From: Monopterus albus
Taxonomy: Eukaryota
Assembly (NCBI RefSeq): GCF_001952655.1
Contig: NW_018128417.1
Span: 11,996-31,965 of the forward strand
Direction: 5' to 3'
DNA length: 19,970 nucleotides
The notes below the pieces were generated by a model. It made no database searches. It saw only the letters and a list, made by a program, of their open reading frames with translations, and was not told where the DNA came from. Below are positions 176-18,066 of the stretch, one piece after another; position 1 is the stretch's first letter; every line of letters begins with the position of its first letter. The translations under genes and the position numbers were made by a program.

Positions 176-228
176 GTACGTAGATTGTTTATATTGTAAA
201 TATAATAATAAACGTGAATCCACTGTGT
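176..228. repeat. 53-bp direct repeat, copy 1 (gtacgtagattgtttatattgtaaatataataataaacgtgaatccactgtgt)
   Basis: Seen directly. Near-identical 53-mer recurs at 646-698 with 2 mismatches; the two copies lie 470 bp apart. Confidence 0.85.
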
Positions 229-727: not shown

Positions 728-1411
728 TCAATGGGAGCCCTGAACTTGTTTCTCTGCAACGAGATGGTCCCATCTGGGGGTAATAGGAGACAATGACACC
801 CGAAGTGTGTTGCTTATGTTCAGTCTACTCCGTTGTTTTGTTTTGGTTGCTGTCACTGCAGAAAAACCTGCTTCACACAGATAGGATGTCGGAAATGGCA
901 ACAGGGTTTTCAGTGCTGTGGTGGCGATCTCAGGGTATTCTGTCATGACTTTAATCCAGAACACCGGCAGAGTTGTTGTCTCGAACATACTTTTAAGGCC
1001 GCCGTCATTTGCGATCTCCAGCAGTTGATCTTCTTCTTGCACAGACCTGCTGGATTCACCTGGTTTGTTGACAAATGGGTTGCGGATCCCTTCCTTGGCA
1101 GTTCGTGGGTCCTTTGTGGTTGGGAAGTAGCGCTCGAACTCTTTTAAAGGCAAAGACAGGTGATCGTGCACCAGCTGGGAGAATGAAGACTCAGGCTCAG
1201 TGTCACCCCAAATCCCCGCTAATGTTTGAAACATGTCCAAAATGCCTCTGTTGACGCGCCGTCCCCACAAATCCAGTTTGGCTTTAAATGCAGCTACTTT
1301 ATCTGCCAACTTGAAGACAGTTGTCATTTTCCCCTGAAGTGACAGATTGAGTTCATTGAGCAGGCTGAATATGTTGCACAAGTAATCCAGTTTTGGCGCT
1401 GAAGTGACCAA
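728..1411 (-). pseudogene. hAT (Charlie/ZBED5-like) transposase, C-terminal hATC dimerisation-domain portion only (227 uninterrupted codons)
   Basis: Translation KEFERYFP...NPFVNKPGESS...LLEIANDGGLKSMFETTTLPVFWIKVMTEYPEIATTALKTLLPFPTSYLCEAGFSAVTATKTKQRSRLNISNTLRVSLSPITPRWDHLVAEK is the characteristic C-terminal region of hAT-Charlie transposases and their domesticated ZBED5/FAM200/GTF2IRD2-like relatives. The N-terminal BED finger and catalytic core are absent; upstream of codon 1 there is only about 150 bp before the TIR. Confidence 0.7.
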
Positions 1412-1553
1412 GATGTAACCGAGATAATGCGGTCATTTTTCAAAATAAAAGATCGTTCAGATTCAGATAATAAATAAAACGGAAATACTTAATGATTTCT
1501 TGTGCGGCCCGGTACCAATTGATCCACGGACCGGTACCGGTCTGCGGCCCGGG

Positions 1554-1568: not shown

Positions 1569-2628
1569 TTCTAGTGAACACAAGCTTCACCTCAAACATT
1601 TATTACAAGCAGGCACATCTGTAAAATCCCCAACATACATCTAAAGATGCAACCCCCTGCTGCGCAACAGGAAGAAATCTTTGACTTTTCCTCTAACATA
1701 TGGGAGGGAACTCAGTGTGACCGAAACACAGATTGTTGAGGCCCGAGTCTGCAGGTGGGACAAGAGGAAGCAGCTAGCATGGATATGCTCACTATTCACA
1801 CACACACAAATTACTTTGTCATTGCACTGACCGAAAATTATGAACACAAAAATGTAGAAGTAACACAATGGTATGCGAGCTTCAATTTCACACGTTTCTA
1901 GCCTCTATGGCTTTTCATAAATTCTAGCAGCCCTGAAGTGTATTAAGAAATGAACACATTGTATTGGACTTGTTTGAGCTGTACACGTTTAAATAAATCA
2001 ATCCTGCAAAACTGGTTGTATAGGATAAAAAAGAAGAAATATTAAGACACTCAAACATTATTTAAAGATTTTAATACTGTTCACGACCAGACACACAAAC
2101 AGTATCAGCAACAACCATAACAAGGAAAAAGAGACACTTGATAAAGCTAAATGCATAATAGTGCAGATCTGTTATATGTGATTAACTTCTGTAATTTCTC
2201 TTGGCCAAACTTGATCACCAAAGTAAGAGATCATAAAGCACCCTGTCAGCTGCTGATCATAGAAATGTAAAGCTGATATTTAAAAAATAAATTTCAGGAA
2301 GTGGTTCTTCTCTTTAGATCTACAAAACCAGTGTCAGACCAAACAAATACACCCCCCCATTAAAAACTAAAACAAGCGGTAAAACGGCCTCCTTATCTTA
2401 AAACTGTAATTTGTTCAAATTCTTTAGTGTAAATCTTGCCAAGTGTAGCGGAGTTATAATTCCATTTGCCATAACCCAAATAATTTGTTGCAATGGCATT
2501 TTATTTTGTTACTCCCTCCAGAAGTGAGATGTGTGTGGTGGTAATAGATTGGGGTGCCCCTGCAAACTTGAGGGGGTGCAGCCCGTGCTGCTTCCTTACT
2601 TATAATAAGGAAGCGTGGTTCAATTGGC

Positions 2629-2790
2629 GCCAGTCTGCCATACACTCTCATGGAGGTAAGTTGCGTTCGCTGCTGCTATACTAGCATAGCATGACAATTG
2701 GTACCTAAGTCTAAAACTGTTTTTGTTCCCTTTTAGTTAATTTGAATGCAACGGAGCTAAAGCTGTGCTGTTTTATGTTCTCTGTACCAG
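2629..2790 (+). repeat. Exon-like duplicated unit, copy A (27 bp + 81-bp GTAAGT..TTTTAG intron-like segment + 54 bp)
   Basis: 2629-2655 and 2737-2790 recur contiguously at 2823-2903. The intervening 2656-2736 starts GTAAGT and ends with a polypyrimidine run plus TTTTAG. Confidence 0.7.
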
Positions 2791-2822
2791 GTATTGTGCA
2801 TTTTAATTTATTTTATACACAG

Positions 2823-2903
2823 GCCAGTCTGCCATACACTCTCACGGAGTTAATTTGAATGCAATGGAGCTTAGGCTGTGCTGTTTTATGTTCTCTGTAC
2901 CAG
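2823..2903 (+). repeat. Exon-like duplicated unit, copy B (no intervening segment), followed by AATAAA at 2905-2910
   Basis: 81 bp co-linear with the two halves of copy A at ~90% identity. Separated from copy A by a 32-bp GT..AG spacer (2791-2822). Confidence 0.7.
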
Positions 2904-3402
2904 AAATAAAGACATTTGTAGCTGAAAGATTGTCTCCAGCCGGGTTAATCACAACGCAGAGTACCTCGACACGGATGTGACGAAATCATTCCGCTACACA
3001 AGCACGTGTAATACCCACAGTATTTAAGGTATTTGCTTTTCCATTAGATATTTCAAAAAGTTTTTGTGCAGCCAATTCTAGAACAAACTCTCACAAAAAC
3101 TAAAATGAAGTGAAAAACACATGCTAGTTTGTCTTCTAGCTAAATCTTACTCGACAGGTATTACAGTACGCAGATATTGTTGCTTCAGGACCTGGGCTAA
3201 ATGGTAAAACATGTAAACTTAGTGACAAAGAGTGACTGTGGCTTCGACACGTGCTATCTAAATGACCACTTAGAAAAACTGCTTCACTCTATTTAATCCG
3301 TTTGTGTTTTCTGCTTTTTGAACTTACAGCCTACAATAAAGATGCTTAAAGGCAGCTGTATATCTAAACAAAAGCAATCAGGTTACTTAGGTATAACCAG
3401 TC

Positions 3403-3665
3403 ATGCAGCATCAGATTTCTCCAACTACTCCAACCTGGTTTTTTTGGTTCCTTCGGCTGCTCCCTGCCAGCATCAAATACATTAAGTATCTGATGCTGGA
3501 TGCCAATCCTGACAAGTTAAAAGCCACCAGTCAACCCAAGATGCATGTTTTTGGACTATGGAGTACCCGGAGAGGACCCATGCAGCAATGGTGATATATA
3601 CAAACTCCACTCAGAAAAGTCAGCCAGAAGGTTCAAACGTGGAACCTTCTTGCTGTTAAGTCTAG
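3403..3665 (-). mobile_element. tRNA-derived SINE fragment with Deu-type central domain, 5' head truncated
   Basis: Contains ..catgtttttggactatggagtacccggagaggacccatgcagcaatgg...caaactccactcagaaaag...ggaaccttcttgctgttaag. From memory this is colinear with the widespread teleost SINE core (..ggagtacccggagaaaacccacgcag..gagaacatgcaaactccacacagaaagg..gaacccaggaccttcttgctgtgagg..). The tRNA head would lie at the high-coordinate end and is missing. Confidence 0.5.
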
Positions 3666-3971
3666 TCCAGCGTGGACGTATCTAACATTTGTTCAGTGGA
3701 GACAGCCCTACAGTACATAGACTTCCAAAGGCTATGGTTTTAGTTTAACAGATATTGGATGGGGTTATTTTGAACCCGAGGATGGACTGAACCGGAAACT
3801 GTAGCCACTTATCAGTGGTCAAAAGACATGGCAACCACTATTGTAATCTGATGAGACAGACAAGGCAGATGTTTCCAGTAAGATCTGGAAACCTGTACTG
3901 AAACCTTTTCACAGTGAATGCTAATGCCCTGTGCCCAGTGGAAAACACCTGGCTATGTAAATCTTTGGTCA

Positions 3972-4244: not shown

Positions 4245-4452
4245 TCAGTGGACAAGTAGAGGGGCTGTGGTCAGCTGCAGGTTCAATCCCCTGAGAGGTG
4301 AGAAGGGAGGCAGGTCTTCGTAGCCCAACAGCTGACGGGTGGATGCCTCCCAGCTCCAACCAAACTCCAGCCGGCTGTAGGCACATGGGTACTGCCGGTC
4401 AGCCCAGCAAACCCAGTCCACCGCCCTCTTCACCTCCTCCCAGTGCTCAGAC
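4245..4452 (-). CDS. VWA5A-like gene, terminal coding exon (..SEHWEEVKRAVDWVCWADRQYPCAYSRLEFGWSWEASTRQLLGYEDLPPFSPLRGLNLQLTTAPLLVH*)
   Basis: Acceptor ctttctctaccag|GTCTGAG at 4453-4454. The frame continues from the previous exon (..CCT AG|G TCT..). The segment KCEWELLERKAVAWMRAH from my recollection of human VWA5A aligns with SEHWEEVKRAVDWVCWAD. Stop TGA at 4245-4247. Confidence 0.55.
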
Positions 4453-4599
4453 CTGGTAGAGAAAGTCAGACATTATCAAAGGAGGAAGCTGCTCTGAGAA
4501 CAGTTGGCCGGGTTTACAAAATCATCCAGAGCAAACAGATTAAATAAATTATGATACTTTAACAACCTGGCATTATTATTTATATGCATTTCTTTTATA

Positions 4600-5230
4600 A
4601 GGTGTGCTTTATGGGACATTGGAATTTATCACATTTACAAAAAGAACTGATACTTTGATCGATTCTTCTTACAGATCAGTTTCTCCTCTGATGCCACAAG
4701 TGTTCATGTTTGATTTCTCCACTGCTCTATGTTTGTACCTTATTTGGACTACTGTGTTGAGTGTTGGGGAAATACATACAAAGCGCATTATGCTCATTAT
4801 TTAAACTACAGAAAAGGGCCATTAGAATTGTTCATGGACTTGGTTATAGGGATCATACAAATTCATCATTTGCACATTCAGGATTTTTAAAATTTTTTGA
4901 CTTAGTAAAATACAAATCTGCTGTATTTATGTATAAAGTCAGATATAATTTGGTGGCAAGTGTTATTCGGGGTCTGGTGATCGAGAGGGTGGTTATGGAT
5001 TGAGGGGCCACTTAAATTTAAAAACTCAGGCCATACGTACAACTAGGAAAAGTTTTTGTATATCTGTGAGTGGTGTAAAATTATGGAATAGATTGGGTGA
5101 TGATTTAAAACAATGTACAAGTGTAAAACAATTTAAGAATAAATATAAAAAGGCCTGCATAGCTGGGTATTGTTTTAAGTTATTATCGGTGTATTTATGG
5201 GTGGGATATGAATAATTTATTGTTTATCAT
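4600..5230 (+). mobile_element. Non-LTR retrotransposon ORF2 C-terminal / 3' tail fragment (RTE/Rex3- or L2-like), frameshifted
   Basis: Three consecutive plus ORFs (..KLQKRAIRIVHGLGYRDHTNSSFAHSGFLKFFDLVKYKSAVFMYKVRYNLV.. / ..RGHLNLKTQAIRTTRKSFCISVSGVKLWNRLGDDLKQCTSVKQFKNKYKK..). The pattern ..TN..F..LKFxDLVK..K...GxKLWN.L....K is typical of the extreme C-terminus of fish LINE ORF2. Confidence 0.45.
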
Positions 5231-5496
5231 TTGTTTGCCAATTATGTAAATGTGATTTGTGGTTAGAAGGAATGTAGTAATTTGGTGGTTGCGGGAATTT
5301 AACCAGTGTAGTCGTTTAGTTAAATATTTGGGTTGTGTCAACCATAGTTTGGATCACTAGGGGTAGAACTAGATAAGTATTACTTCTTTCTACTCCCTTG
5401 CAAGCATGTAATGACTAATCATCATCAAGAGAAATTTCTATTTTTTTGGTTGTATATGGTAATTGGTTTGGTTGTTTTGTGTTACATGTTGATTTC

Positions 5497-5560
5497 TTTT
5501 TTTTTTTTTTCTCTGTTTCTCTGTTTTATTACATGCTTGGAATAAATAAATAAATAAATT
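5497..5560. repeat. Simple repeats: T14 homopolymer (5497-5510) and (AAAT)5 microsatellite (5541-5560)
   Basis: Seen directly. Confidence 0.9.
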
Positions 5561-5619
5561 TTGGATTGATCACGTCTTGTATTTTCTGTGACTTTTTTTG
5601 ATCTAATTTAGGTTGTAAC

Positions 5620-5700
5620 CAGTGGTGGAATGTAACTAAGTACATTTACTCAAGTACTTCTTTTTTGAGGTACTTGTACTTTGAGTATTTTCTTCTCATG
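5620..5700 (+). mobile_element. Tol2-like hAT terminal fragment (CAGTGGTGGAATGTAACTAAGTACATTTACTCAAGTAC...GAGGTACTTGTACTTTGAGTA)
   Basis: Starts CAG and carries repeated AAGTAC / TACTCAAGTA subterminal motifs like Tol2-type hAT ends. Another TTTACTCAAGTAAAG occurs at ~5895. I found no matching opposite TIR. Confidence 0.25.
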
Positions 5701-6068
5701 CCAATAAATATACAGCTAATACTTTTTATTAAACTACATTTAAATAAGAGATTGAGTTACTTTACAAATCAAGATTTTTTTGCAGACAAAACATGGCAAC
5801 TATTTTGATAAATACTGATGTAATTTTTCATGACAAAGTGCTATTGTCATATTTCCTGTATTTCATGGCTCCAGCTCCTCAGATATGAAAAAGCAAAGAG
5901 GAGTTTTACTCAAGTAAAGGATCTGAATACTTCATCCTCCACTTTTCAACACGTATTTTGGCTGCACATTGAACCTTTGAGACTAGACTAAGGATGTGTT
6001 TTTAAAAATACTTAGAAAGGCATTTATTTTACATTGCTTTACATTGTTGTGACTAGCTGAGGACTGAC

Positions 6069-6201
6069 CTAGGCTGAGAGGAGTCGTCCAGGCGGAAGAG
6101 GGTGTGCAGCAGTTTGCCTTCCTCCAGCCTCTCCACCCTCATCAGCTGCAGAACCAGGAGAGTCGCCAGTAACCTCAGGATATCCGCATGGGCCCTCACA
6201 C
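6069..6201 (-). CDS. VWA5A-like gene, penultimate coding exon (..VRAHADILRLLATLLVLQLMRVERLEEGKLLHTLFRLDDSSQP..)
   Basis: Acceptor tgtgttgtgcag|GT.. at 6202-6203. Donor CCTAG|gtcagt at 6067-6068. Open in one frame only, and phase-compatible with both neighbours. Confidence 0.55.
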
Positions 6202-6637
6202 CTGCACAACACACATGGTTTTAACACTGGTGGGAACCAAAGCTCCAGTCCCGGTTGAGATGTCTGTACTAGTTATTAACAACAGGCCACACTGACAAAA
6301 ACTGAACTGTTTGCTATGTCACAACTTCACAAGTACAGAAGATCCCAGTACAAACCGGCCACAGTAACATTTACTACATAGGAAAAGATGTTATTCATGT
6401 GCTTTTTACAATCTAGGCTGATTGTACCACTTCTTTACTGGCTGATGATGCTGTTAAAGCAGAACTGTGAGAACTAACCTGTTCACACAATGAAATTGGA
6501 AAATTGGCGCCAGCTTTCAGGTAATGGTAGTATTTCTAGTAATGATGGCTCTTCTAACCTTACTTTGAATCATGATTTTGCACTGAATATGCAACGTTTC
6601 ATTAGGTTTTTGTCGTACAGGTTCTGTGAGCTCTCAC

Positions 6638-6740
6638 CTAGAGAACGGATGCCCTTGTTTTGCAGGTACACGTTGGCAAAGAGATCTACGTCAACATTTA
6701 TGGATTCACCCAGCTCTGTGGTTAACTCCCAGTAGCCCTC
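6638..6740 (-). CDS. VWA5A-like gene, coding exon (EGYWELTTELGESINVDVDLFANVYLQNKGIRSL)
   Basis: Acceptor gtgtgttgcag|GAGGGC at 6741-6742. Donor TCTCTAG|gtgaga at 6636-6637. Aligns to the recalled human VWA5A segment NGSWDLNEDLAKILGMSLEEI. Confidence 0.55.
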
Positions 6741-7124
6741 CTGCAACACACATTACAGGTTTTCCCTTCATTCAAGCTTAAAACAGTTTTTCATGAATAT
6801 ACTGTCAATAACAATGTAGATTGCAACAAATATGTCCCACATGATCATGCATCTCTGCGCCAGGCCATCTGAAAATGAACACTAAACCAACACAATGAGT
6901 GACAGAAATAATATACTGTAATCCACTTAGTTTGAATAAAACAAGTCCTCTTAATTTCACAGTTTCAGCCTATTAGACTAAACAGGTATGTGTCTCAAAC
7001 ACATTCATGGCAGTAAAAGAAGAGACACAGCTAATAAAATTCTTTGGGGCAGCAACAATGACAACATTACTTTCATACAACTATACATGTGCTGTAAATG
7101 AAGCTAGGCCATTATTAATGTTAA

Positions 7125-7500
7125 TCAAATTAACTCCTCCACACTGACCATGGTTTGTTGGCACAACACTGGTTTTTCCAGCCTTTCTGAGTAGCTCCTC
7201 TTTGCTACTCTGATCTCCTTTGTCAGTGTGTTTCTAGCCTGCTTATACAGGGTCCTGTCCCCATTCTTGTAGGCCTCCTCTTTTGCGTGACAGAGCTGTT
7301 TGAGCTTCACTGTGAACCAAGGTTTAATGTATGTGCAGACAGTCTTAATGGAGGCACACACACACATGTCCTCACAGAAACTGATATAGTCAGTAAACTC
7401 ATCCAGGTCTGTATCTGCAGCCACAATAACACCCCAGTCTGTACAGTCAAAGCAGGCCTGTAGCAATGCTTGTCACCCAAACTGAGTCTGCTCACAGACA
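7125..7500 (-). mobile_element. Non-LTR retrotransposon ORF2 N-terminal-region fragment (family distinct from the 229-645 fragment)
   Basis: Minus ORF ..ACFDCTDWGVIVAADTDLDEFTDYISFCEDMC...IKPWFTVKLKQLCHAKEEAYKNGDRTLYKQARNTLTKEIRVAKRSYSERLE.. From memory this matches the ..CFDCTDW..F...DLDE.TD.V.SYI.FCED...P.K....N.KPW.T..I..L...K..AF..GD...YK.AR..L...I..AK..Y..KLE block of fish LINE ORF2. Confidence 0.5.
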
Positions 7501-7590
7501 CACGCTGTCTGGTTCACTCAATCACAACATTGTTAACAAAAGGTTTGAGTCTTCGAACAGAGTTGGTGGTAACAAAAATCAAAGCTGATA

Positions 7591-8808
7591 CAGTGGAACC
7601 TTGGATTGCGAGTACCCCGGTTTGCGAGTGTTTTGCAAGACGAGTGTAGTGGTTAAAAATAAACAAGGTTCCAGAGGTAATATGTAATAGAACAGTATGC
7701 ACTTCATATATAGATATTATTTGTAATAGTTATGTAAGGCTGAGCTAAGTGTTTACAGAAGCTTGATCTGTTTCTTGCGCAAGCAAGAATATCTTGGGCT
7801 GTGTCCCCATTGTTTAACCTATGGGTCAACATCCCGAGTGACTTCCTCCTTAGATGGGGAATGGATAGCTGCAGCCTTATGTGAACTGTTCGTGTGCTCT
7901 GTTCAGGTTTAGAAAAAGGAAATGTGCGCTAGGTCAATGCGACCTAGAAGTTCATGTACTAGACATTTTTAGACAATGCTCGGAAGAAGTTTTGTGTGGG
8001 TAGCTGGCATGAGACTGTGTCTCATGCTCAGGCCATGGAAGGCTGTATAAGTGCAAGCAGATAAAAGGCTAGGATAGCTGGGTTAGAGCAGAAGAATTGA
8101 GGATGACAATGCCACTGTGAAAAGTGTTCCGGGGACCCAGGCCTGGGTGGGGAAACAAACTCAGGACTATGAACTCTGACTGACGGTACCTCGTGACCAA
8201 CAACAACTGACTGGACTGACTGGCGCTTTGACAATCTTCTTATTTAATACTTTATCTATCACATTGCAGGAGGAGTGACTCTGGTCTCCGTTCTCTGTTC
8301 CCTATCAGATCTTCTGTTTCACTATTACTCTGTTCAGAATAATTGTAATATTAAATGGTCATTTAAATTGGGATGATTTGTCTGAATTAATTTAGTCGGC
8401 TTCACACTCTAGCCATGACACAAGCAAAAACATTTTGATTCGATATACGAGTGAGGTCTCGCAATATGAGTAGTACGTACACTTTGTCTGCCGAGCATCA
8501 CGTGACGCAAGTCATAACTGAGCCGATGGTTCTCGCGCTTCACTCGTATAGTCAATATCTATACTGCAACAATGGCCCCTCACGCCAGCCACGATTCTTT
8601 TCAAAGGTCAAGTGCAGGTTAATGTTTTATTTTTACTTTATACTGTATTTTTTATTACTGTAATCATTTTTATATGGATAAGTGGGTGTGGAACGAATCA
8701 TCTGAGTTTCCATTATTTCTTATGGGAAAATTCGCTTTGATATACGGTTGCTTTGAATTACGAGCACATTGCTGGAATGAATTATACTCGCAATCCAAGG
8801 TTCCACTG
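7591..8808. mobile_element. Non-autonomous Tc1/mariner-superfamily DNA transposon (1218 bp) with perfect 24-bp TIRs and flanking TA
   Basis: Left end 7591 CAGTGGAACCTTGGATTGCGAGTA. Right end 8785-8808 TACTCGCAATCCAAGGTTCCACTG is its exact reverse complement. TA at 7589-7590 and 8809-8810. No transposase-like ORF inside. Subterminal ..ttgcgagtg.. / ..cgcaatatgag.. repeats. Confidence 0.65.
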
Positions 8809-9507
8809 TATTTTACTTGCCAGCAGGACATGCAAACTGTTCATTTATTCACACACCTGCACCTGCACCTGAATGAAATGCATCCATGATCCATGTTTTT
8901 AATTTCATCTGTTCAGTAGAAATGCTCACGTAGACCCATTAAAAATGCAAAATCTCTTACTGAATGCTGCATCTGGAAGATCTTTGTCCATTTGTGCGTT
9001 AGTGTTTCCGGATCAGCTGGTGTCATCCTGAAACAGCACAGTCACAACAGGACACTTGTCAGTGTGACAGCTGATGTATAATAAAAACGCATATGCCCAG
9101 GGATGTAAAGAAAACCACACACTTCAGCTGACTTGCTCTTCCTTCCACATGCATAAATGCACATATACAGAGAACACACAAAAACACCCTTCAGTCCACC
9201 AGCTAGTTAACAGCTGATTTCCTCTGGTCAGCTAAAGCCTTGTCAGCATTTAAAATGAGTACTCTGGCAACACTAATTGTTTTAAAAAACTTTTAATCAG
9301 ATTTTCTAAATAGAAGCATATTTAAAAAATGTATTATTCTAGGACTCACTCCACATCCAGTGCGTCCAGCACACCTGAAGTCTGAGGACATATTAGGGAT
9401 AACCTCTTCCTCCTTAAAACAGATGGACGTGCATCTCCAACATGTTCAGGTTCCCTCTGGGCCAGTCCGAATCCAAAACAAGAACGTGGTGGTTGAATTT
9501 TCTCTAC

Positions 9508-10524
9508 AGAATGGCTTAACAATTGCGCTTTTTCTACAAGATTAGGCTCAGTGTGGTCTGATGTCCCCAGAAATTGCACACTAGATTCATAGGAAGCGAT
9601 ATAATCTGAGTCCTGGTCAAAAGCAAAATTGGATATTGCCCCTTCATATGAGAAGACTTTGATTCCAGTTGTATCAGCTGCCATTACTGGGGCTAAAGAT
9701 GCTTCCTTTGCAAGATGTATAGGCACAGCTGCTGTACACAATTCCACAGAGACAGCGGAACTCTTCTCTGTGTCCAGAAGGTCAGGAGCTAATGAAGACG
9801 TCATTAAAGCACCCGTGGCTAATTCTTGAGCAAAGAAAGAGGGATGACTGCCTGAGTACATGGTAATGTCAGGTGAGGAGAATTCACCATGACGTTGCCT
9901 GAAGGCTCTCCTGTGTCCTGCTGACCGCTTCAATCGAGGCTCCATGTCACGAATGTTGCCTAAGAGGGCAGGAGGAGGAGCTGGGCAAGGAGGAGGAGGA
10001 GGAGCAGAGCCAGGAGGAAGAGGAGCTTGGCACAGAAGACGAGAAGCACGTCTAGGAGGGGGAGGGGCAGAGCAGGGAAGGGGAGGAGCAGAGCAAGGAG
10101 GAGGAGGAGCTGGGCAAGGTAGGGATGGAATCAACATAGTTTTAAGATAAGGAGATGGTCCAGGAAGAGCAGGAGCTAGGCGAGGAAGAGCAATAGGTGT
10201 GCCAGAAAGAGGGGGTGCTGGACAAGGAGCAGAACCAGAGTGAGCAAGAGCATGGAACGTACGAAGAATGTGGGGAGCAGGAGATAAAGAGAGTGCAGCA
10301 TTGCCAGAAAGAGGGGGGCAAGAGGTATCAAGACCTTCCATGAGGTCTATATCAGATAAGGCAAGTTCATCTTCAACAAAACTAACACCCATCGCTTCAT
10401 TTGATTCTGTGCCTGATTCCAATTCATGCGTCCTTTTTCTGCTCCTTTCCAACATTAGGTAATCCGAAAATGAAGCACCGTCTATTGGTAATTCCTCAGC
10501 CAAATCAGGTAAGGAGTAGCAAGT
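9508..10524 (-). CDS. VWA5A-like gene, large coding exon (339 codons) encoding a proline-rich low-complexity linker (..PCPAPPPPCSAPPLPCSAPPPPRRASRLLCQAPLPPGSAPPPPPCPAPPP..) followed by ..DHTEPNLVEKAQLLSHS
   Basis: Part of the 402-codon minus ORF 9346..10554. Proposed acceptor ttttctttatcag|ACTTGC at 10525-10526 is phase 0 and matches the upstream exon. Proposed donor CATTCT|gtagag at 9506-9507 is chosen because it joins ..NLVEKAQLLSHS to EGYWELTTEL in frame, mirroring the recalled human ..NHLVQLIYHQNA|NGSWDLNEDL. Exon boundaries are inference. Confidence 0.45.
9960..10140. repeat. Degenerate purine-rich minisatellite (GGAGGAGCAGAGC(A/C)AGG-like units) forming the proline-rich coding tract on the minus strand
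   Basis: Seen directly: ggaggaggagctgggcaaggaggaggaggaggagcagagccaggagg...ggaggagcagagcaaggaggaggaggagctgggcaagg. Confidence 0.75.
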
Positions 10525-10786
10525 CTGATAAAGAAAAGAAATTGAGAAAGCCAAAAAAAAAGTCAGAACCTATCTTAAAACAACTGCAATACAAACTTTT
10601 TTCCAGTTTATGCAATTAAATGTTTCTAGATCAGCTCTCTCAAAGCAAACTTTTAGGATTCCTGATCTAGGTTTTAACAAGTCCTTTCAGAATACCAGCC
10701 TGCCCCTGCTTTCACATTAAATGTCATTTTCTGTGAATCTCATGCAAAAAGACTGGAGTTATTATTATCATCCATAACTTCATATA

Positions 10787-12326
10787 CAGTGGGGAAAACA
10801 AGTATTTGATACACCGCCGATTATTCAAGTTTTCCCACTTACAAAGAATGGACAGATCTGTAATTTTCATCATAGGTACACCTCAACTGTGAGAGACAGA
10901 ATCTACAAAAAAATTCCAGAAAATCACAGTTAGATTTTTAAATAATTTATTTCCATTTTGTTGCATGAAATAAGTATTTGATACAATAGAAAAATAGAAC
11001 TTAATATTTGGTACCGAGGTCAGATGTTTCCTGTAGTTCTTGACCAGGTTTGCACACACTACAGCAGGGATTTTGGCCCACTCCTCCATACAGGTCTTCT
11101 CCAGATCTTTCAGGTTTTGAGGCTGTCGCTGGGCTCCCTCCATAGATTTTCTATTGGGTTCAGGTATGGAGACCGGCAAGGCCACTCCAGGACCTTGAAA
11201 TGCTTCTTACGGAGCCACTCCTTAGTTGCCCTGGCTGTGTGTTTGGGGTCACTGTCATGCTGGAAGACCCAGCCACAACCCATCTTCAATGCTCTTACTG
11301 AGGGAAGGAGGTTGCCCAAAATCTCGCGATACATGGCCCAATCCATCCTCTCCTCAATACGGTGCAGTTGTCCTGTCCCCTTTGCAGAAAAGCACCCCCA
11401 AAGCATGATGTTTCCACTCCCATGCTTCACGGTTGGGATGGTGTTCTTGGGATTGTACTCATCCTTCTTCTTCCTCCAAACACGGTGAGTGGAGTTTATA
11501 CCAAAAAGTTCTATTTTGGTCTCATCTGACCACATGACCTTCTGCCATGCCTCCTCTGGATCATCCAAATGGTCTTTGGCAAACTTCAGACAGGCCTGGA
11601 CATGTGCTGGCTTGAGCAGAGGGACTTTGCGTGCGCTGCAGGATTTTAAGCCATGACGGTGTAGTGTGTTACTAATGGTAACTGTTGAGACTGCGGTCCC
11701 AGCTCTCTTCAGGTCATTGGCCAGGTCCTCCTGTGTAGTTCTAGGCTGATCCCTCACCTTTCTCAGCATCACTGATACTCCACGAGGTGAGATCTTGCAT
11801 GGAGCCCCAGTCCGAGGGAGATTGACAGTCATCTTGAATTTCTTCCATTTTCTCATAATTGCACCAACACTTGCTCACCAGGCTGTTTGCCTATTGTCCT
11901 GTAGCCCATCCCAGCCTTGTGCAGGTCTACAATTTTGTTCCTAGTGTTCTTAGACAGCTCTCTCTTGCTATAGTGGAGAAGTTGGAGTCTGATAGATTGA
12001 GTGTGTGGACAGGTGTCTTTTATACAGGTAACGAGTTCAAACAGGTGCAATTAATACAGGCAATGAGTGGAGGATAGGAGGGCTTCTTAAAGACAAACTA
12101 ACAGGTCTGTGAGAGCCAGAATTCTTGCTGGTTGGTAGGTGATCAAATACTTATTTCATGCAATAAAATGGAAATAAATTATTTAAAAATCTAACGGAAT
12201 TTTTTTGTAGTTTCTGTCTCTCACAGTTGAGGTGTACCTACGGTGAAAATTACAGATCTGTCCATTCTCTGTTAGTGTGAAAACTTGAAAAATTGGCAGT
12301 GTATCAAATACTTATTTGCCCCACTG
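10787..12326 (-). mobile_element. Tc1-like (Tc1/mariner, IR/DR-type) DNA transposon, full length (1540 bp) but inactivated
   Basis: Ends CAGTGGGGAAAACAAGTATTTGATACACC (10787-) and GGCAGTGTATCAAATACTTATTTGCCCCACTG (-12326) are inverted repeats. Inner copies of ..AAGTATTTGATACA.. lie at ~10970 and ~12135, giving an IR/DR structure. TA at 10785-10786 and 12327-12328. The DDE transposase lies inside. Confidence 0.9.
10883..12050 (-). pseudogene. Tc1-family DDE transposase, split across three frames (frameshifted; initiator Met lost)
   Basis: ORFs 11853..12050 (..[29 protein letters not shown]..), 11110..11856 (..[11 protein letters not shown]...[13 protein letters not shown]...[10 protein letters not shown]...[17 protein letters not shown]..) and 10883..11185 (..[31 protein letters not shown]..) are colinear with Sleeping Beauty/Tc1 transposase (helix-turn-helix, DD(34)E and C-terminal motifs). 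Confidence 0.9.
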
Positions 12327-12470
12327 TATCAACAGTAACTTACCAATGAGCAAATGAATGAGCACTGCTTTGCTTTATCAATATGAGTGTGATGTCGCAC
12401 AAGGATATGGGACTCATTAATTAACAATTAACATTTAGGACTCATTAACCTAATAAGTGTTACTTATTAT

Positions 12471-12488
12471 CCCCCCCCCCCCCCCCCC
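12471..12488. repeat. C18 homopolymer
   Basis: Seen directly, about 145 bp from the Tc1 element end. Confidence 0.95.
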
Positions 12489-12767
12489 ACTTTTCCTGCT
12501 TTAAAAAACAACAGCTCACTCTAAAGAATGCATTTGTCTTCCCCAGCAAGAAATTACAAACATGCCGTTGTGGTTTATGTATGAAGGGAATTGGTGAATA
12601 ATGTGGAGAGGCTGAGGCCTGCCCATCATAGTTCAACAAAGAGACAAAGAGATAAAAGCAGGACTAGCACATACCAACAGGTAAATTTGCTCTTTCCCCT
12701 CTCCCTGGTTATACTACACACTGTGTGATGTTACCTCCAAAAAAAACCAAAAGAAAAAAAAACATAC

Positions 12768-12911
12768 ATCACATAGTACATCTGACAGTTCTTTGTCCTC
12801 CTCTTCACTATGCTCAGGAGAAATCCAGCTGATGTATGTGAGGATGTCCACATCTTCCTCTGCAATCAACTTGGGGATGTCTGTGAAACCATCCTCTGTT
12901 TGTTCTGGGTC
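12768..12911 (-). CDS. VWA5A-like gene, coding exon (DPEQTEDGFTDIPKLIAEEDVDILTYISWISPEHSEEEDKELSDVLCD)
   Basis: Acceptor cttccatattttag|GACCCAG at 12912-12913. Donor GAT|gtatgt at 12766-12767; an alternative donor GAT|gtacta lies 9 nt upstream. Open in one frame, phase 0/0. Confidence 0.45.
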
Positions 12912-13006
12912 CTAAAATATGGAAGAGGAGTTTGGTTGGGAGCTACCAGAAGTGGATACAAATAAAAAGGTAGAAATGTTTAAAATCCAGTGACAACTGC
13001 ACAAAC

Positions 13007-13102
13007 CCTTTCCTCAATGGCCACAAAGCTGGTGAACTGAGACAGGATGGAGAACTCTCTGCTCAACCCAATGATGAAGGATTTCAGCTCCGCTTTCTTC
13101 CC
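13007..13102 (-). CDS. VWA5A-like gene, coding exon (GKKAELKSFIIGLSREFSILSQFTSFVAIEER)
   Basis: Acceptor ctctcttccag|GGGAAG at 13103-13104. Donor GGAAAGG|gtttgtgc at 13005-13006. Matches the recalled human VWA5A segment ..KKDALNLSLESGVISSFTAFIAINKE.. Confidence 0.6.
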
Positions 13103-13202
13103 CTGGAAGAGAGGGAGAGAAAATAAACCATGTGGAGCTCAGACTGGATTTAAACTGAGGTGTGTTGCTTTTGGCCTCACTCAATGACACACACAAACGC
13201 AC

Positions 13203-13319
13203 CTCATGTTCAGCTTCATCACTATCCAGGCTTCCGTCTTCATAATCCCTGATGAGGGCCCTTGCTGTGAGCTTGTGAAGAAACTGAACACATACATCAA
13301 TACACATTATAATCATCAC
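13203..13319 (-). CDS. VWA5A-like gene, coding exon (..IDVCVQFLHKLTARALIRDYEDGSLDSDEAEHE)
   Basis: Donor CATGAG|gtgcgt at 13201-13202. Matches recalled human ..PDVNLTIHRLAARSLLQTKDMG... The 5' boundary is uncertain: acceptor catgag|GTGATG at 13320-13321 gives phase 0. Confidence 0.5.
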
Positions 13320-13439
13320 CTCATGTTCATGATAATGACAGTCACCATCAATTAGTTGCCAGGTTACTCAGAGAAATCTGAGGGCTGTTTCACAAAACCT
13401 AGATAGTGCATTAAGCTGGGCTTTTCCAGTTATCCTGGC

Positions 13440-13652
13440 TGAACTTAGCTGTGAATCCATCCGTTATCTATACTGCTTATCCTGAAGAGGGTCATGGGGG
13501 GCTGGAGCCAATCCCAGCTGACACTGGGTGAGAGGCAGGGTCCACCCTGGACACGTCACCAGTCTATCACAGGGCTGACACAGACAGACAACCACAGACA
13601 CGTTCTTGGTGTGAGGCAGCAACGCTAATCACTGCACCACCATGCCACCCCT
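13440..13652 (-). mobile_element. tRNA-derived SINE (Deu-domain-type), internally deleted; tRNA-like head at the high-coordinate end
   Basis: Reverse complement of 13590-13652 reads GGGGTGGCATGGTGGTGCAGTGATTAGCGTTGCTGCCTCACACCAAGAACGTG, a tRNA-like head with A and B boxes. 13470-13560 (ggctggagccaatcccagctgacactgggtgagaggcagggtccaccctggacacgtcaccagtctatcacagggc) matches the tail of the same teleost SINE family as 3403-3665. Confidence 0.55.
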
Positions 13653-13774
13653 AGCCATGAAATGGATTCACAAAAGCAGTAGTGCATAAATTATCATGGA
13701 GATTTATTCTGTGCAGCCTCCTTAGTCCAGGCTAACAGCCAGGCTCCATTAATCCTATTCCCTTATCTGTTCTG

Positions 13775-14730
13775 TTAGCAGTCACTCTGTGTCTTATCAT
13801 CTTTATGCAGATGATGTTCAAATTTATTGCTCTTTTAATGACTCTGAGTTCCATTTTTTAGCTACATTGTTAGAGTGCTTGTCATCCATCAAGAACTGGT
13901 TTAACAGTAACTATCCTCATATAAACTCTAATAAGACTGAAGTGCTGATTATTGCGCCTGATAATAAGATCCCGTCAATCAGACAACGCCTTGGTTCATT
14001 GGGCTCCTCTGTCCAGTCGAGCCTCAGAAACCTTGGTGTTGTGTTTGATCACACTATGTCTCTCGATTGTCATGTAAGACAGGTGGTAAAAAATTGTTTT
14101 TATCATCTGAGGAATATTTCTAAATTAAGGCAAATGTTATCAAAGGTTGACCTGGAGATGATTATCCATGCTTTTATCTCTGCACGTCTTGATTATTGTA
14201 ATTCCCTTCTTATTGGTTACAATAAGTCAACTGTAAATCGTCTTCAGATTGTGCAGAATGCTGCAGTTTTTATCACCTAAAGAATATTTCTAAACTAAGG
14301 CAAATGTTATCAAAGGTTGATTTGGAAATGATTATGCATGCTTTTATCTCTGCACGTGTTGATTACTGTAATTCCCTTCTTATCTGTTACAATAAGTCAA
14401 CTGTGAATTATCTTCAGATTGTGCAAAATGCTGCAGTGAGGCTTTTAACAGGAACCCCTAGAAGAGCTCATATTACGCCTGTCTTATTTTCACTTCACTG
14501 GTTACCAGTCAGGTTTAGAATTGATTTTAAAATTTTAGTACTAACATTTAGGGCACTTCATGGTCAGGCACCTCAGTATATTGCTGACCTATTGACCCCA
14601 TATTTTCCGAAGCGTGCTCTCCACTCCTCAAGTCAGGCCATTTTAGTGGTCCCCAAAACCCGTTTGAAAACTAGGGGGGGCCTGTCTTTTCAGGCTCTGG
14701 CTCCCACAGTTACTGTTATATAGAGCCTGT
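13775..14730 (+). mobile_element. L2-clade LINE, 5'-truncated (RT C-terminal half plus 3' region)
   Basis: Plus ORF starts ..SYHLYADDVQIY (RT YxDD box). It continues ..IKNWF..NYPHINSNKTEVLII...LGVVFD..MSLDCHVRQVVKNCFYHLRNISKLRQMLSKVDLEMIIHAFISARLDYCNSLL.G..KST...LQIVQNAA(V)RLLTG..R..HITPVLFSLHWLPVRFRIDFKILVLTFRALHGQAPQYIADLLTPY..RALHSS...LVVPKTRLKTRG, the classic fish L2 ORF2 C-terminus. Confidence 0.75.
14097..14437 (+). repeat. 170-bp tandem duplication inside the L2 RT-coding region (copy 1 14097-14266, copy 2 14267-14437)
   Basis: Seen directly. ..ttttatcatctgaggaatatttctaaattaaggcaaatgttatcaaaggttgacctggagatgatt..ctgcagt recurs immediately with about 93% identity. At the protein level RNISKLRQMLSKVDLEMIIHAFISAR.DYCNSLL.GYNKSTVN.LQIVQNAAV is encoded twice. 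Confidence 0.85.
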
Positions 14731-14934
14731 ATGAATCATTCCACAAAAATGGTTGAAGTGCTGTCACTTAGCCTATTTTTACAGACACCAAAATCCTTAA
14801 AGTTGACATAATCATAGTAATTTCATTCTAATGACAAAACACAGATTATTCATCTGATGTTCAATTTTAGCAAATTAATTAAATGTCTTGTCATTTTGAG
14901 CATAGACCTACCTTTCATAATTTTTTCATGAATT

Positions 14935-15660
14935 CAGTTTCTTTCAAAAAAGAAAAAATCCTGACACTTGCAGACAACACGATGGTCATTGGCCTCATTC
15001 AAGACGGTGACGAGTCGGCCTACAGACGGGAGGTTGAACAACTGGCCCTGTCGTGCGGTCGTAACAACCTGGAGCTGAACACACGGAAGACAGTGGAGAT
15101 GATAGTGGATTTTAGGAGGAGCTCCACCACTCTATCTCCACTCACTATACTCAGCAGCACTGTTTCAGTCATGGAGTCCTACAAGTTCCTGGGCTCCACA
15201 ATCTCTCGTGACTTGAAGTGGGCAACCAACATCAGCACCATCATTAAAAAGGCATCAGAGGATGTACTTCCTGCGTCAGATCAGGAAGTTCAACCTGCCC
15301 CAGGAACTTTTGATTAAGGTCTATAGAGGAACCATCGAGTCTGTTCGCTGCTCATCCATCACTGTCTGGTTTGTTCCAGGAACCAAATAGGACAGGAACA
15401 GATTTCAGCGAACAGTCAGGACTTTGGAGAAAATCATTGGTGCAACCCTGCCCTTCATAGAGGACCTGTACACCTCACCGGTCAAAAAGAGGGCAGAGGA
15501 GATTTCTGCGGACCACTTACATCCTGGACACAAAGTGTCTGAACACCTTCCCTGTGGACGGCGTTACAGGTAAGACAAGCAGACACAGAGACAATTTCTT
15601 CCCCAGGCTATTACACTCTTGAACAGCCAGTCTATGTTTCCCCTTTTAACTTGTATATAT
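14935..15660 (+). mobile_element. CR1/L2-clade LINE (Rex1/Babar- or jockey-like), 5'-truncated RT C-terminal fragment with frameshifts
   Basis: ORF 14883..15317 ..LADNTMVIGLIQDGDESAYRREVEQLALSCGRNNLELNTRKTVEMIVDFRR....LSPLTI.SSTV..MESYKFLGSTISRDLKW..NISTIIKKA.. continues out of frame as ..YFLRQIRKFNLPQELLIKVYRGTIESV...ITVWF....RNRFQRTVRTLEKIIGATLPFIEDLYTSPVKKRAEEI..D..HPGH.....LPCGRRYR....QTQRQFLPQAITLLNSQ. This is the familiar fish LINE RT tail (..FFPQAIRLLN). Confidence 0.65.
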
Positions 15661-15884
15661 TTTGTATTTATTCTGTTTTTAATCGGGGGCCATTGGGCTG
15701 GAGTCAAATTCCTTGTATTTTTGATAATACTTGGCAATAAAGTTTATGCTTATTATTTCATCGGCTTTATTAAATGGAACACTGAAATAAAACAAATAAG
15801 CTAGCTAATCATTATTAATATTAAAGAGATATCACCCAACAAGCACAGTGCCATTCGTGCGAGGAGTCCGTTCATTTTCACTAC

Positions 15885-15953
15885 ACTACCTAAGCAACAT
15901 GCTGGCATGGTCAAATGGAACACAGCTTCTGTGTCAGTGAATGTGTGATCAAC
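15885..15953 (-). CDS. VWA5A-like gene, small coding exon (VDHTFTDTEAVFHLTMPACCLGS); boundaries tentative
   Basis: Open in one frame only. HTFTDTEAVFHL matches the recalled human KTFEDKVTFPL. Acceptor cacgag|GTT (weak polypyrimidine tract) and donor AGT|gtagtg are chosen to keep phase 0 with the neighbours. The alternative donor G|gtagtg gives phase 1 and no compatible downstream acceptor. Confidence 0.35.
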
Positions 15954-16641
15954 CTCGTGTTCTGGTGAAGAAAACAGTGAACACGGATTCATCCAAATTA
16001 CTTACACCTGGCTTCATCCAGCTAGGCATCCTCAACCTGGTTTGGCCTTCGTGAAACGTATTAAGCCAGGATGCACTTAACACACTTTCTCATGTTATCC
16101 TGGAATTTTTAATTCTGCTTTTGTGAAACAGCCCTCAGGTTATGTGGGTACCTAGTGTGTTTACATGCAGTCTAGTCACCTGGTAATGTAAATCTGTTTA
16201 TACATGCAGCAGATCATTACCCAGATTTCTCCTCCACCCGTGACTTATTTTGGAAGGATGGGCCACTGAATTCAATTGCATAGAGATAGAAAATGCTGCT
16301 TCCTGTCTTTTTTTTTCTACTGTATATCGGAGCGAACCGACAGCATAGCGAGAGAGACAAGACGGCAGACATAGTGGAGCGTCTTTTCACAGCACACTGT
16401 TTAAAATAATCCTGACACTCTTCTCTGCTACTTTCTTGTCTTCAGTGTTTTATCGTGCATCTGCAGAAAGCCAGTGACCTCCAAGAGAAATCTAGCTAGG
16501 GAAATGAGGTTTTTGTAATCCCCTATATGATTACAAAAAATGAGTTTTGATTTGTTTAGTTTTTTTTTTGTTTAAATGACAGATTAATCTGCTGGAGAAA
16601 TCTGACTAACAGGTCAGTGTGTGTGCTTACTGTGCCCCTGG

Positions 16642-18054: not shown

Positions 18055-18066
18055 CCCCCCCCCCCC
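18055..18066. repeat. C12 homopolymer (G12 on the gene strand), 35 nt inside the intron downstream of exon 18100-18199
   Basis: Seen directly. A further G6 on plus at 18083-18088. Confidence 0.95.

What the first reader, a model, noticed from the sequence alone, without database searches (positions are those of the whole stretch)
2627..2910. Tandem pair of exon-like units, one with and one without a perfect 81-bp intron-like segment, ending in AATAAA
Copy A is 27 bp (gccagtctgccatacactctcatggag), then an 81-bp segment starting GTAAGT and ending in a polypyrimidine run plus TTTTAG, then 54 bp (ttaatttgaatgcaacggagct..ctctgtaccag). A 32-bp GT..AG spacer follows. Copy B has the same 27 + 54 bp fused seamlessly (..cacggag|ttaatttgaat..) and is followed 1 nt later by AATAAAG. 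This is what a transcribed two-exon unit would look like next to a processed (intron-less) copy of itself, or a tandem exon duplication in which one copy gained or lost an intron. It lies about 1 kb beyond the 3' end of the VWA5A-like gene, on the opposite strand. There is no long ORF, so if transcribed it is likely non-coding or UTR.
Basis: seen in the sequence. Interest (0 to 1): 0.5.

Follow-up and report, generated by a model that had tools for sequence, protein, structure and literature searches.

The report
Spliced copy beside its two-exon source
In a transposon-rich stretch of a fish genome just past the PARP4 gene, a short promoter-plus-two-exon unit sits 32 bases from an intron-less copy of the same two exons, most likely a small RNA-derived (reverse-transcribed) patch; it is a tidy but ordinary kind of genomic fossil whose transcription could not be tested here.

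Summary
Copy A is 27 nt (2629-2655), an 81-nt GTAAGT...TTTTAG segment (2656-2736), then 54 nt (2737-2790). A 32-nt spacer follows. Copy B (2823-2903) is the same 27+54 nt fused, 77/81 identical, with AATAAA at 2905-2910.

Three sequence-internal results support a spliced, RNA-derived origin for B:
- The 81-nt segment has a near-consensus donor, pyrimidine tract, AG-free zone and branch-like CTAAA. It is the only donor/acceptor pair that strong in the window.
- A/B homology starts at the only TATA(-31)+Inr combination on the + strand.
- Homology stops at a donor-like CAG|GT, and the flanks share nothing, which argues against a plain DNA tandem duplication.

B has no poly(A) tail or target-site duplication. 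It therefore resembles template-switch or break-repair cDNA patches, not a LINE-type processed pseudogene.

The neighbouring gene is PARP4, not VWA5A. No Rfam family, RNA structure, protein relative or collection match was found. The region is not conserved downstream of PARP4 in sea bass or Trematomus. Transcript support, genome-wide copy number and the direction of change stay untested. Interest is low to moderate.

The parts
2590..2614 (+). Palindrome GCTTCCTTA-CTTATAA-TAAGGAAGC that contains the TATA-like box.
   Evidence: Read. Self-match 2590-2614 on the opposite strand. Hairpin in the fold (not more stable than shuffles).
2601..2608 (+). TATA-like box TATAATAA, 31 nt upstream of the Inr A (28 nt upstream of where the A/B homology starts).
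   Evidence: the only TATA(-34..-27)+Inr combination on the + strand of the window, and one of 5 on both strands.
2630..2636 (+). Initiator-like CCAGTCT (YYANWYY), with A+1 at 2632. This is the putative transcription start of copy A.
   Evidence: The same heptamer is present in copy B (2824-2830).
2629..2655 (+). Copy A, exon-like unit 1 (27 nt).
2656..2736 (+). 81-nt intron-like segment present only in copy A. It has the donor GAG|GTAAGT, a branch-like CTAAA 22 nt before the 3' end, a pyrimidine tract, no AG before the terminal AG, and the acceptor TTTTAG|T.
   Evidence: No stable RNA structure.
2737..2790 (+). Copy A, exon-like unit 2 (54 nt). It ends CAG and is followed by GT.
   Evidence: The donor-like score at 2791 is in the top 0.5% of positions.
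2791..2822 (+). 32-nt spacer, GTATTG...ACACAG. Read here as the first 32 nt of the intron that follows exon 2 of copy A. It is too short to be an intron itself.
   Evidence: No significant similarity to either outer flank.
2823..2903 (+). Copy B: units 1 and 2 fused with no gap (27+54 nt), 77/81 identical to spliced copy A. Inferred to be an RNA-derived (cDNA) patch.
   Evidence: Homology is limited to the exon-like parts.
2905..2910 (+). AATAAA hexamer one base after copy B. It lies outside the A/B homology, no poly(A) tract follows, and it is possibly incidental.

Best explanation
Copy A is the 5' end of an RNA polymerase II transcription unit, active or decayed. It has a TATA box at -31, an initiator, a 27-nt first exon, an 81-nt GT-AG intron, a 54-nt second exon, and the first 32 nt of the next intron.

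Copy B is a DNA copy made from the spliced RNA of that unit, or of an identical paralogue. It begins at the transcription start, has the intron removed exactly, and ends at the 3' edge of exon 2.

B has no poly(A) tail and no target-site duplication. It was therefore most likely laid down in one of two ways: as a short cDNA patch captured during double-strand-break repair, or by reverse-transcriptase template switching. The two copies have since drifted about 5% apart, including one CpG decay in each, with no sign of constraint.

Shown: the repeat, the splice and promoter signals, the limits of homology, and the lack of poly(A) or duplicated flanks. Inferred: that A is or was transcribed and spliced, that B came from RNA, and the insertion mechanism.

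A sub-variant that cannot be separated here: A+spacer+B entered together as one chimeric cDNA. In that case the reverse transcriptase reached the 5' end of a spliced RNA and jumped onto an unspliced RNA of the same gene, and the parent gene lies elsewhere.
For: - Exact repeat, far beyond chance.
- The indel boundaries coincide with a donor in the top 0.015% and an acceptor in the top 0.26% of positions. This is the only such pair within 60-150 nt in about 40 kb of both strands, apart from the same donor with the site at 2790. A branch-like CTAAA and an AG-free zone are read directly. An 81-nt intron is close to the modal intron length of compact teleost genomes (own knowledge: about 79 nt in Fugu).
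- The left limit of homology (2629) lies 3 nt from the A+1 of the only TATA+Inr combination on the + strand (5 on both strands). The chance of landing within 3 nt of such a site is about 1e-3.
- The right limit of homology is CAG|GT, with a donor-like score in the top 0.5%.
- Nothing outside the exon-like parts is shared. The spacer matches neither the sequence upstream of A nor that downstream of B, and neither flank recurs anywhere in the window.
- Published precedents for partial, spliced, RNA-derived insertions without poly(A) or target-site duplication: class 2 templated sequence insertions (PMC5110952), and LTR-retrotransposon template-switch retrocopies, reported as 5 of 7 in zebrafish (PMC5131818).
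Against: - No transcript evidence of any kind could be consulted.
- B lies only 32 nt from its presumed source, which random integration does not predict. It needs either a cis-acting repair event or co-insertion.
- An RNA-derived copy that ends exactly at an exon boundary should continue into exon 3. The sequence after B (AAATAAAGACA...) has no second copy in the window, so a parental exon 3 is missing or lies more than 17 kb away.
- No related sequence was found in any searchable collection, so family size and polarity (loss in B versus gain in A) are untested.
- The splice and promoter scores use approximate matrices and simple consensus patterns.
Confidence: 0.5

Rival explanations
1. Both copies are fragments of a dispersed repeat: a transposable element, or a multi-copy gene family with its own promoter and a small 5' intron. 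Such elements pass through RNA, so their genomic copies exist in spliced and unspliced forms. The pair here would then be two members, or a 5' rearrangement of one insertion.
For: The window is dense with transposon remains: a Tc1 transposase with 134-nt inverted ends, reverse-transcriptase fragments and other repeats. Retroelements with optional introns and partial tandem arrangements are known (Penelope-like elements, own knowledge). The A1-X-B1-A2B2 order resembles the split direct repeats of tyrosine-recombinase retroelements (PMC4157794).
Against: There are only two copies in 20 kb. No RT, endonuclease or recombinase ORF adjoins the pair. No hammerhead ribozyme or any Rfam family matches. 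A six-frame translation of 2440-3012 matched no predicted protein among the 8000 candidates scored. The representative search gave only spurious hits to repeat proteins. No exact match was found in the viral, metagenome or prokaryote collections, though these hold little fish DNA. The fish genome itself could not be searched, so this rival is not excluded.
Confidence: 0.2
2. A DNA-level tandem duplication of a two-exon segment, followed by a separate change in one copy. That change would be either precise intron loss in B (cDNA-mediated conversion or a microhomology deletion using the AG...AG at the boundaries) or intron gain in A (insertion with later recruitment of splice sites, or reverse splicing).
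For: - The two copies are head-to-tail and close together.
- The indel position is ambiguous by 2 nt (AG/AG), as in microhomology deletions.
- The start of the 81-nt segment (GTAAGTTG) matches the start of unit 2 (TTAATTTG) at 6 of 8 positions. This could be a decayed 8-bp target duplication (read; it also appears as the extension of repeat D2).
- The 81-nt segment has a weak global similarity to the 81-nt unit (p 0.002-0.03 depending on the null).
Against: - A tandem duplication predicts that the spacer is made of the sequence downstream of B joined to the sequence upstream of A. Neither matches.
- The duplicated block would have to begin by chance at the TATA+Inr start site and end at a donor-like site.
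- A random insertion or deletion would carry splice signals this strong with probability of order 1e-6.
- The similarity between intron and unit falls to about the top 3% when compared with real windows on both strands.
- Intron gain is rare in vertebrates (own knowledge).
Confidence: 0.15
3. Coincidence or artefact: two short similar sequences with an unrelated 81-bp indel that merely looks like an intron, or a mis-assembly that stacked two alleles.
For: The region is AT- and T-rich, so pyrimidine-tract-plus-AG contexts are locally common. Acceptor-like scores also occur before 2791, 2823 and 2904. No external support for function was found.
Against: The repeat has zero occurrences in shuffles. 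The joint donor/acceptor strength is unique in the window. The copies differ at 4 sites and have unrelated flanks with no gap, which is unlike collapsed or duplicated haplotypes.
Confidence: 0.03

Closest known systems
Class 2 templated sequence insertions (cDNA patches at repaired double-strand breaks; Onozawa and Aplan, PMC5110952)
   Same: A short insertion templated from a transcribed sequence. It can contain spliced exons, and has no target-site duplication, no poly(A) tract and no cryptic poly(A) requirement. Copy B shows all of these.
   Different: Described templates lie at distant loci, whereas here the presumed template is 32 nt away. Junction features of end joining (microhomology, untemplated bases) cannot be scored without the empty site.
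Template-switch (LTR-retrotransposon-mediated) partial retrocopies (Tan et al. 2016, PMC5131818)
   Same: Partial, truncated copies of spliced mRNAs without poly(A) or target-site duplication, reported in zebrafish among other species.
   Different: Those copies are embedded between LTR-retrotransposon sequences. No LTR pair or retrotransposon ORF flanks this locus.
LINE-mediated processed pseudogene
   Same: It is intron-less relative to its source and begins at the transcription start.
   Different: No poly(A) tail, no target-site duplication, only 81 nt long, and adjacent to its source.
Reverse-transcriptase-mediated intron loss by cDNA recombination (Fink model), and promoter-retaining intron-less teleost genes (PMC6385490; title and abstract seen)
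   Same: Exact removal of an intron from a genomic copy via a spliced RNA, and proximity of the cDNA-derived sequence to the parent gene.
   Different: That model replaces the intron-bearing copy. Here the intron-bearing copy persists and the intron-less one sits beside it, so at most this would be an abortive or one-sided version.
Split direct repeats (A1-B1-A2-B2) of PAT/Ngaro tyrosine-recombinase retroelements (PMC4157794)
   Same: The order of repeat halves, A1 ... B1 then A2B2 contiguous.
   Different: The internal region here is 81 nt with splice signals, not several kb with RT and recombinase ORFs. No such ORFs are nearby.

Membership tests
Spliceosomal GT-AG intron (segment 2656-2736) | 5' splice site close to MAG|GTRAGT | tested here: met
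   GAG|GTAAGT; score in the top 0.015% of all positions on both strands (approximate matrix).
Spliceosomal GT-AG intron (segment 2656-2736) | Pyrimidine tract plus AG acceptor, a branch-like site 18-40 nt upstream, and no intervening AG | tested here: met
   CTGTTTTTGTTCCCTTTTAG|T, top 0.26%. CTAAA lies 22 nt upstream with no AG in between (read).
Spliceosomal GT-AG intron (segment 2656-2736) | Removal from RNA observed (spliced reads or cDNA) | not testable with these tools
   No transcriptome of the source species is accessible. Copy B is the only, indirect, witness of the spliced form.
RNA polymerase II core promoter upstream of copy A | TATA box about 25-31 nt upstream of an initiator (YYANWYY) | tested here: met
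   TATAAT at 2601 and CCAGTCT with A+1 at 2632. It is the only such combination on the + strand and one of 5 on both strands. Activity was not tested.
LINE-type processed pseudogene (copy B) | Introns of the parent are absent | tested here: met
   27+54 nt fused exactly at the GT...AG boundaries.
LINE-type processed pseudogene (copy B) | 3' poly(A) tract | tested here: not met
   The sequence after B is AAATAAAGACATTTGTAGCTGAAAGATTG..., with no A-run.
LINE-type processed pseudogene (copy B) | Target-site duplications flanking the insert | tested here: not met
   No significant similarity between the 40 nt before B and the 500 nt after it.
Class 2 templated sequence insertion / cDNA patch | Templated from a transcribed sequence, possibly spliced, and lacking both target-site duplication and poly(A) | tested here: met
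   An exon-exon junction is present, and target-site duplication and poly(A) are absent. Transcription of the template is inferred from promoter and splice signals.
Class 2 templated sequence insertion / cDNA patch | End-joining signatures at the junctions, judged against the empty site | not testable with these tools
   No orthologous or allelic empty site could be obtained. The sea bass and Trematomus loci are not alignable here.
DNA-level tandem duplication | The junction between copies equals the downstream flank joined to the upstream flank, so homology extends beyond the exons | tested here: not met
   The spacer 2791-2822 matches neither 2300-2628 nor 2904-3400 above chance. The flanks are unique in the window.
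Dispersed repeat / transposable element family | Many copies across the genome | not testable with these tools
   Only 2 copies in the window. No hits in the viral, metagenome or prokaryote collections, nor among predicted proteins. The source genome is not searchable.
Penelope-like retroelement (optional intron, pseudo-LTR) | Hammerhead ribozyme motif in the repeat and an RT plus GIY-YIG ORF | tested here: not met
   No Rfam match at gathering threshold, or at E up to 10, in 2200-3700 except an irrelevant bacterial sRNA at E = 8. No ORF over 65 aa in 2400-3400.
Tyrosine-recombinase retroelement with split direct repeats | RT and YR ORFs between A1 and B1 | tested here: not met
   Only 81 nt lie between the halves, and there are no ORFs.
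Structured small RNA gene | Match to a known family, or a fold more stable than shuffles | tested here: not met
   No Rfam hit. Fold z-scores range from +0.4 to +1.5 for the unit on both strands, the intron and the precursor.

The most novel reading that the evidence does not exclude
The pair could be a fossil of a cis-acting RNA-to-DNA event at the source gene itself. One form is an abortive, one-sided version of cDNA-mediated intron loss, in which the gene's own spliced transcript was reverse-transcribed and joined 32 bp downstream of exon 2 instead of replacing the intron-bearing copy. The other is the reverse polarity: a recent intron gain in copy A by reverse splicing or insertion. Either would be a rare, directly datable natural intermediate for models of intron loss or gain in vertebrates.
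Probability: 0.12. Interest if true: 0.55.

Novelty: new member of a known kind. Interest (0 to 1): 0.27.

Why it matters
If the reading is right, this locus is a compact natural example of a spliced RNA being copied back into DNA right beside its own template, in a teleost. The mechanisms that make retrocopies in teleosts are less well characterised than in mammals. Such cases bear on how introns are lost through cDNA intermediates and on how breaks in transcribed DNA are patched.

As it stands, it is one short, apparently unconstrained, non-coding relic in transposon-rich intergenic DNA. It is useful for annotation: it should not be called as two exons of a gene without RNA evidence, and the neighbouring gene is PARP4.

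Tried and rejected
1. **Known RNA families.** Rfam at gathering threshold on the whole window, and at E up to 10 on 2200-3700, gave nothing relevant. Folding of the unit (both strands), the intron and the precursor was no better than shuffles. A small structured RNA, miRNA-like hairpin, spliced-leader RNA or vault RNA gene is therefore rejected.

2. **Orthologous loci.**
   - PARP4 relatives were found. The loci of Dicentrarchus labrax (L001) and Trematomus bernacchii (L003) were fetched with 10-kb flanks.
   - Only the last PARP4 exon aligns, at 82-85%.
   - The closest Logan contig (L002) is 80-92% identical and far from the feature.
   - No relative close enough for non-coding comparison was reachable.

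3. **Family search through proteins.**
   - Exact look-ups of the 63-aa and 65-aa ORFs and of the Tc1 ORF were not on record.
   - The first protein search was wasted on the low-complexity 402-aa exon.
   - The 57-aa frame over copy B gave only multi-repeat chance matches.

4. **Exact DNA scans.** The viral, metagenome and prokaryote-genome collections returned 0 hits. The unit's sequence string occurs in no paper.

5. **'The intron is a decayed copy of the unit'** (both are 81 nt). Global alignment gave p = 0.002 with mononucleotide shuffles and 0.013 with dinucleotide shuffles. It ranks only in about the top 3% of real windows on both strands. Not accepted.

6. **Rogers-type intron gain by internal tandem duplication.** This predicts similarity to the rotated unit (E2+E1). 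None was found, z = 0.55.

7. **Transposon ends.** No terminal inverted repeats were found on the 81-nt segment. The 10-15-nt inverted repeat 2443-2457/2985-2999 is at chance level for the region.

8. **Coding reading.** Copy B has a 16-codon ATG frame (MQWSLGCAVLCSLYQK*) that looks signal-peptide-like. It is stopped after 4 codons in copy A and by the AATAAA region in B, and is not statistically remarkable. Left as speculation.

9. **Bacterial promoter/terminator scan**. Irrelevant for a vertebrate locus.

Full report
**Observation.**
- Copy A is GCCAGTCTGCCATACACTCTCATGGAG (2629-2655), then an 81-nt segment (2656-2736) that starts GTAAGT and ends TTCCCTTTTAG, then 54 nt (2737-2790).
- A 32-nt spacer follows (2791-2822, GT...AG).
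- Copy B (2823-2903) has the 27-nt and 54-nt parts joined without a gap.
- AATAAA is at 2905-2910.
- The repeat finder recovers both halves, 91% over 35 nt and 95% over 56 nt. Counted directly, the copies agree at 77 of 81 positions. Two of the four differences are CpG/TpG changes, one in each copy.
- Each half occurs exactly twice in the window with up to three mismatches allowed, and never in 200 dinucleotide-preserving shuffles. The repeat is real.

**Context.**
- The window is teleost DNA full of transposon remains. These include a Tc1 transposase (Pfam HTH_Tnp_Tc3_2, DDE_3) between 134-nt inverted ends, reverse-transcriptase fragments, and other dispersed repeats.
A query built from its exons hits PARP4 proteins carrying the PF26156 MVP-ID C-terminal domain, at 80-85% identity in percomorphs such as Dicentrarchus, Champsocephalus and Zoarces.
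- Its last coding exon ends at about 4248, so the feature lies roughly 1 kb beyond the 3' end of PARP4, on the other strand.

**Is the 81-nt segment intron-like beyond chance?** I scored every position of both strands with approximate vertebrate splice-site matrices (frequencies from memory, so the numbers are rough).
- The donor at 2656 (GAG|GTAAGT) is in the top 0.015% of positions.
- The acceptor before 2737 is in the top 0.26%.
- 2656/2736 is the only donor/acceptor pair that strong and 60-150 nt apart in the whole window, apart from the same donor with the acceptor-like site at 2790.
- The segment also has a branch-like CTAAA 22 nt from its end and no AG before the terminal AG.
- Its length is close to the modal intron length of compact fish genomes (own knowledge).
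- The indel can be placed at three positions because AG ends both the 27-nt part and the segment. Only one placement gives GT...AG.
- A random indel would carry such signals with a probability of order 1e-6.

**Where does the homology start and stop?** This turned out to be the most informative point.
- The left limit (2629) lies 3 nt from the A of an initiator-like CCAGTCT, and a TATAAT sits 31 nt upstream of that A. This is the only TATA(-34..-27)+Inr combination on the + strand and one of five on both strands.
- The right limit is CAG|GTATTG, with a donor-like score in the top 0.5%.
- Outside these limits the two copies share nothing. The 32-nt spacer resembles neither the sequence upstream of A nor the sequence downstream of B. 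Neither flank recurs anywhere in the window.
- A DNA tandem duplication would make the spacer out of exactly those flanks, so it is disfavoured.
- Homology confined to 'transcription start to exon edge, minus the intron' is what a copy made from spliced RNA looks like. The same argument sets the polarity: loss of the intron in B via RNA is more economical than gain in A.

**What kind of RNA-derived copy?**
- B has no poly(A) tract and no target-site duplication, so it fails two defining features of a LINE-type processed pseudogene.
- It fits the published class of short cDNA patches at repaired double-strand breaks. These class 2 templated sequence insertions can include spliced exons and lack target-site duplications and poly(A) (PMC5110952).
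- It also fits partial retrocopies made by reverse-transcriptase template switching, which account for 5 of 7 informative zebrafish retrocopies in one survey (PMC5131818). No LTR element flanks this locus, however.
- The unusual point is that the copy sits 32 nt from its presumed template. There are two ways out:
  - a cis event, in which a break in the transcribed gene was patched with its own transcript. RNA-templated repair in cis is known in yeast (own knowledge);
- The TATA box at the right distance upstream of A (about 1% by chance) mildly favours A being native.
- A weakness of all RNA readings is that B should run on into exon 3. The sequence after B has no counterpart in the window.

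**Alternatives examined.**
- Structured RNA: no Rfam family matches, and no fold is more stable than shuffles.
- Penelope-like elements and tyrosine-recombinase elements with split direct repeats (A1-B1-A2-B2; PMC4157794) resemble the layout. Their ribozyme or ORF hallmarks are absent.
- The idea that the 81-nt segment is itself a decayed copy of the 81-nt unit gets only weak support, p from 0.002 to about 0.03 depending on the null. The rotated arrangement expected for intron gain by internal duplication gets none.
- A dispersed repeat family remains possible, because the source genome could not be searched:
  - exact scans of the viral, metagenome and prokaryote collections found nothing;
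  - a six-frame protein query found nothing, with the candidate cap reached;
  - the representative search returned only chance matches to internally repetitive proteins.

**Comparative attempt.**
- PARP4 loci with 10-kb flanks from sea bass (L001) and Trematomus bernacchii (L003) align to the window only over the last PARP4 exon, at 82-85%.
- The nearest Logan contig is 80-92% identical and lies elsewhere in the gene.
- The unit is therefore not a conserved exon pair at this position across percomorphs. No species close enough to provide an empty site was reachable.

**Verdict.**
- The copy is better described as a short cDNA patch or partial retrocopy than as a classical processed pseudogene.
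- The AATAAA is outside the homologous part and may be incidental.
- There is no ORF of note and no evidence of constraint: about 5% divergence, with CpG decay in both copies.
- I rate this a new instance of a known kind, of low to moderate interest. There is a small chance (about 0.12) that it records a cis cDNA recombination event or an intron gain, either of which would be more interesting.

Noticed in passing
window 4248-18261, minus strand (exon-like frames at 4248-4472, 6056-6220, 6573-6752, 12717-12911, 12983-13138, about 13230-13310, 16559-16750, 16925-17098, 18043-18261): The large minus-strand gene is the 3' half of PARP4 (vault poly-ADP-ribose polymerase), not VWA5A. The best matches carry the PF26156 MVP-ID C-terminal domain at 80-85% identity in percomorph fishes. 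No identical protein is in the collection.
   Followed up: yes
window 9349-10569, minus strand; 9970-10257: A 407-codon open frame (probably a large PARP4 exon) contains a Pro/Ala-rich low-complexity stretch encoded by about 21-nt GGA-rich tandem repeats. It has no Pfam match, and the word-based protein search saturated at 8000 candidates with no hit.
   Followed up: partly
window 10784-12329: A Tc1/mariner element inside a PARP4 intron. It has 134-nt and 72-nt inverted terminal repeats (89-92%) around a 254-aa transposase frame (Pfam HTH_Tnp_Tc3_2, DDE_3).
   Followed up: partly
window 7588-7614 and 8785-8811; also 7632-7709 / 8302-8420 versus 18314-18391 / 18794-18912: A perfect 27-nt inverted repeat pair lies 1170 nt apart, like the ends of a roughly 1.2-kb non-autonomous DNA transposon. 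Parts of the same element recur at 81-82% identity about 10.5 kb away, so there are two copies of one dispersed repeat in the window.
   Followed up: no
window 14096-14437: A 170-nt unit is duplicated in tandem (90-91%) inside a reverse-transcriptase-like (LINE-type) fragment. The duplication repeats the protein segment ...LSKVDLEMI.HAFISAR.DYCNSLL....
   Followed up: no
window 176-228 and 646-698: A 53-nt direct repeat (96%) brackets a 417-nt segment that carries a retroelement-like open frame on the minus strand. This is either a nested insertion with an unusually long duplication or a local rearrangement.
   Followed up: no
window 731-1432, minus strand: A 234-codon open frame just upstream of the feature has no Pfam match at E <= 0.01. 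From memory its C-terminal part resembles hAT-type transposase dimerisation regions. Not verified.
   Followed up: partly
window 2656-2736 versus 2629-2655 plus 2737-2790: The intron-like segment and the fused unit are both exactly 81 nt, and they align globally better than most controls (about 55% identity; p 0.002-0.03 depending on the null). The tail CTGTTTT-TGTTCCCT versus CTGTTTTATGTTCTCT is the best-matching part. This is too weak to call homology.
   Followed up: yes
window 2776-2790, 2808-2822, 2889-2903: Every unit boundary is preceded by a pyrimidine-rich ...CAG context that scores as acceptor-like (top 0.17-0.32% of positions), not only the intron's own 3' end. Both units start GCCAG and end ACCAG. 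This may reflect local T-richness or a junction microhomology. Unexplained.
   Followed up: partly
window 2859-2909 (copy B) and 2746-2760 (copy A): Copy B holds a 16-codon ATG frame (MQWSLGCAVLCSLYQK*) with a signal-peptide-like hydrophobic core. In copy A the same frame stops after 4 codons. It could be the relic of a start-codon exon of a secreted-protein gene, but it is not statistically remarkable.
   Followed up: no
L001 16547-20644 and L003 10001-15565: In sea bass, a C-type lectin gene follows PARP4 on the same strand. In Trematomus bernacchii, a single gene model fuses a lectin domain with the PARP4 C-terminal domain, which is probably an annotation merge of neighbouring genes.
   Followed up: no
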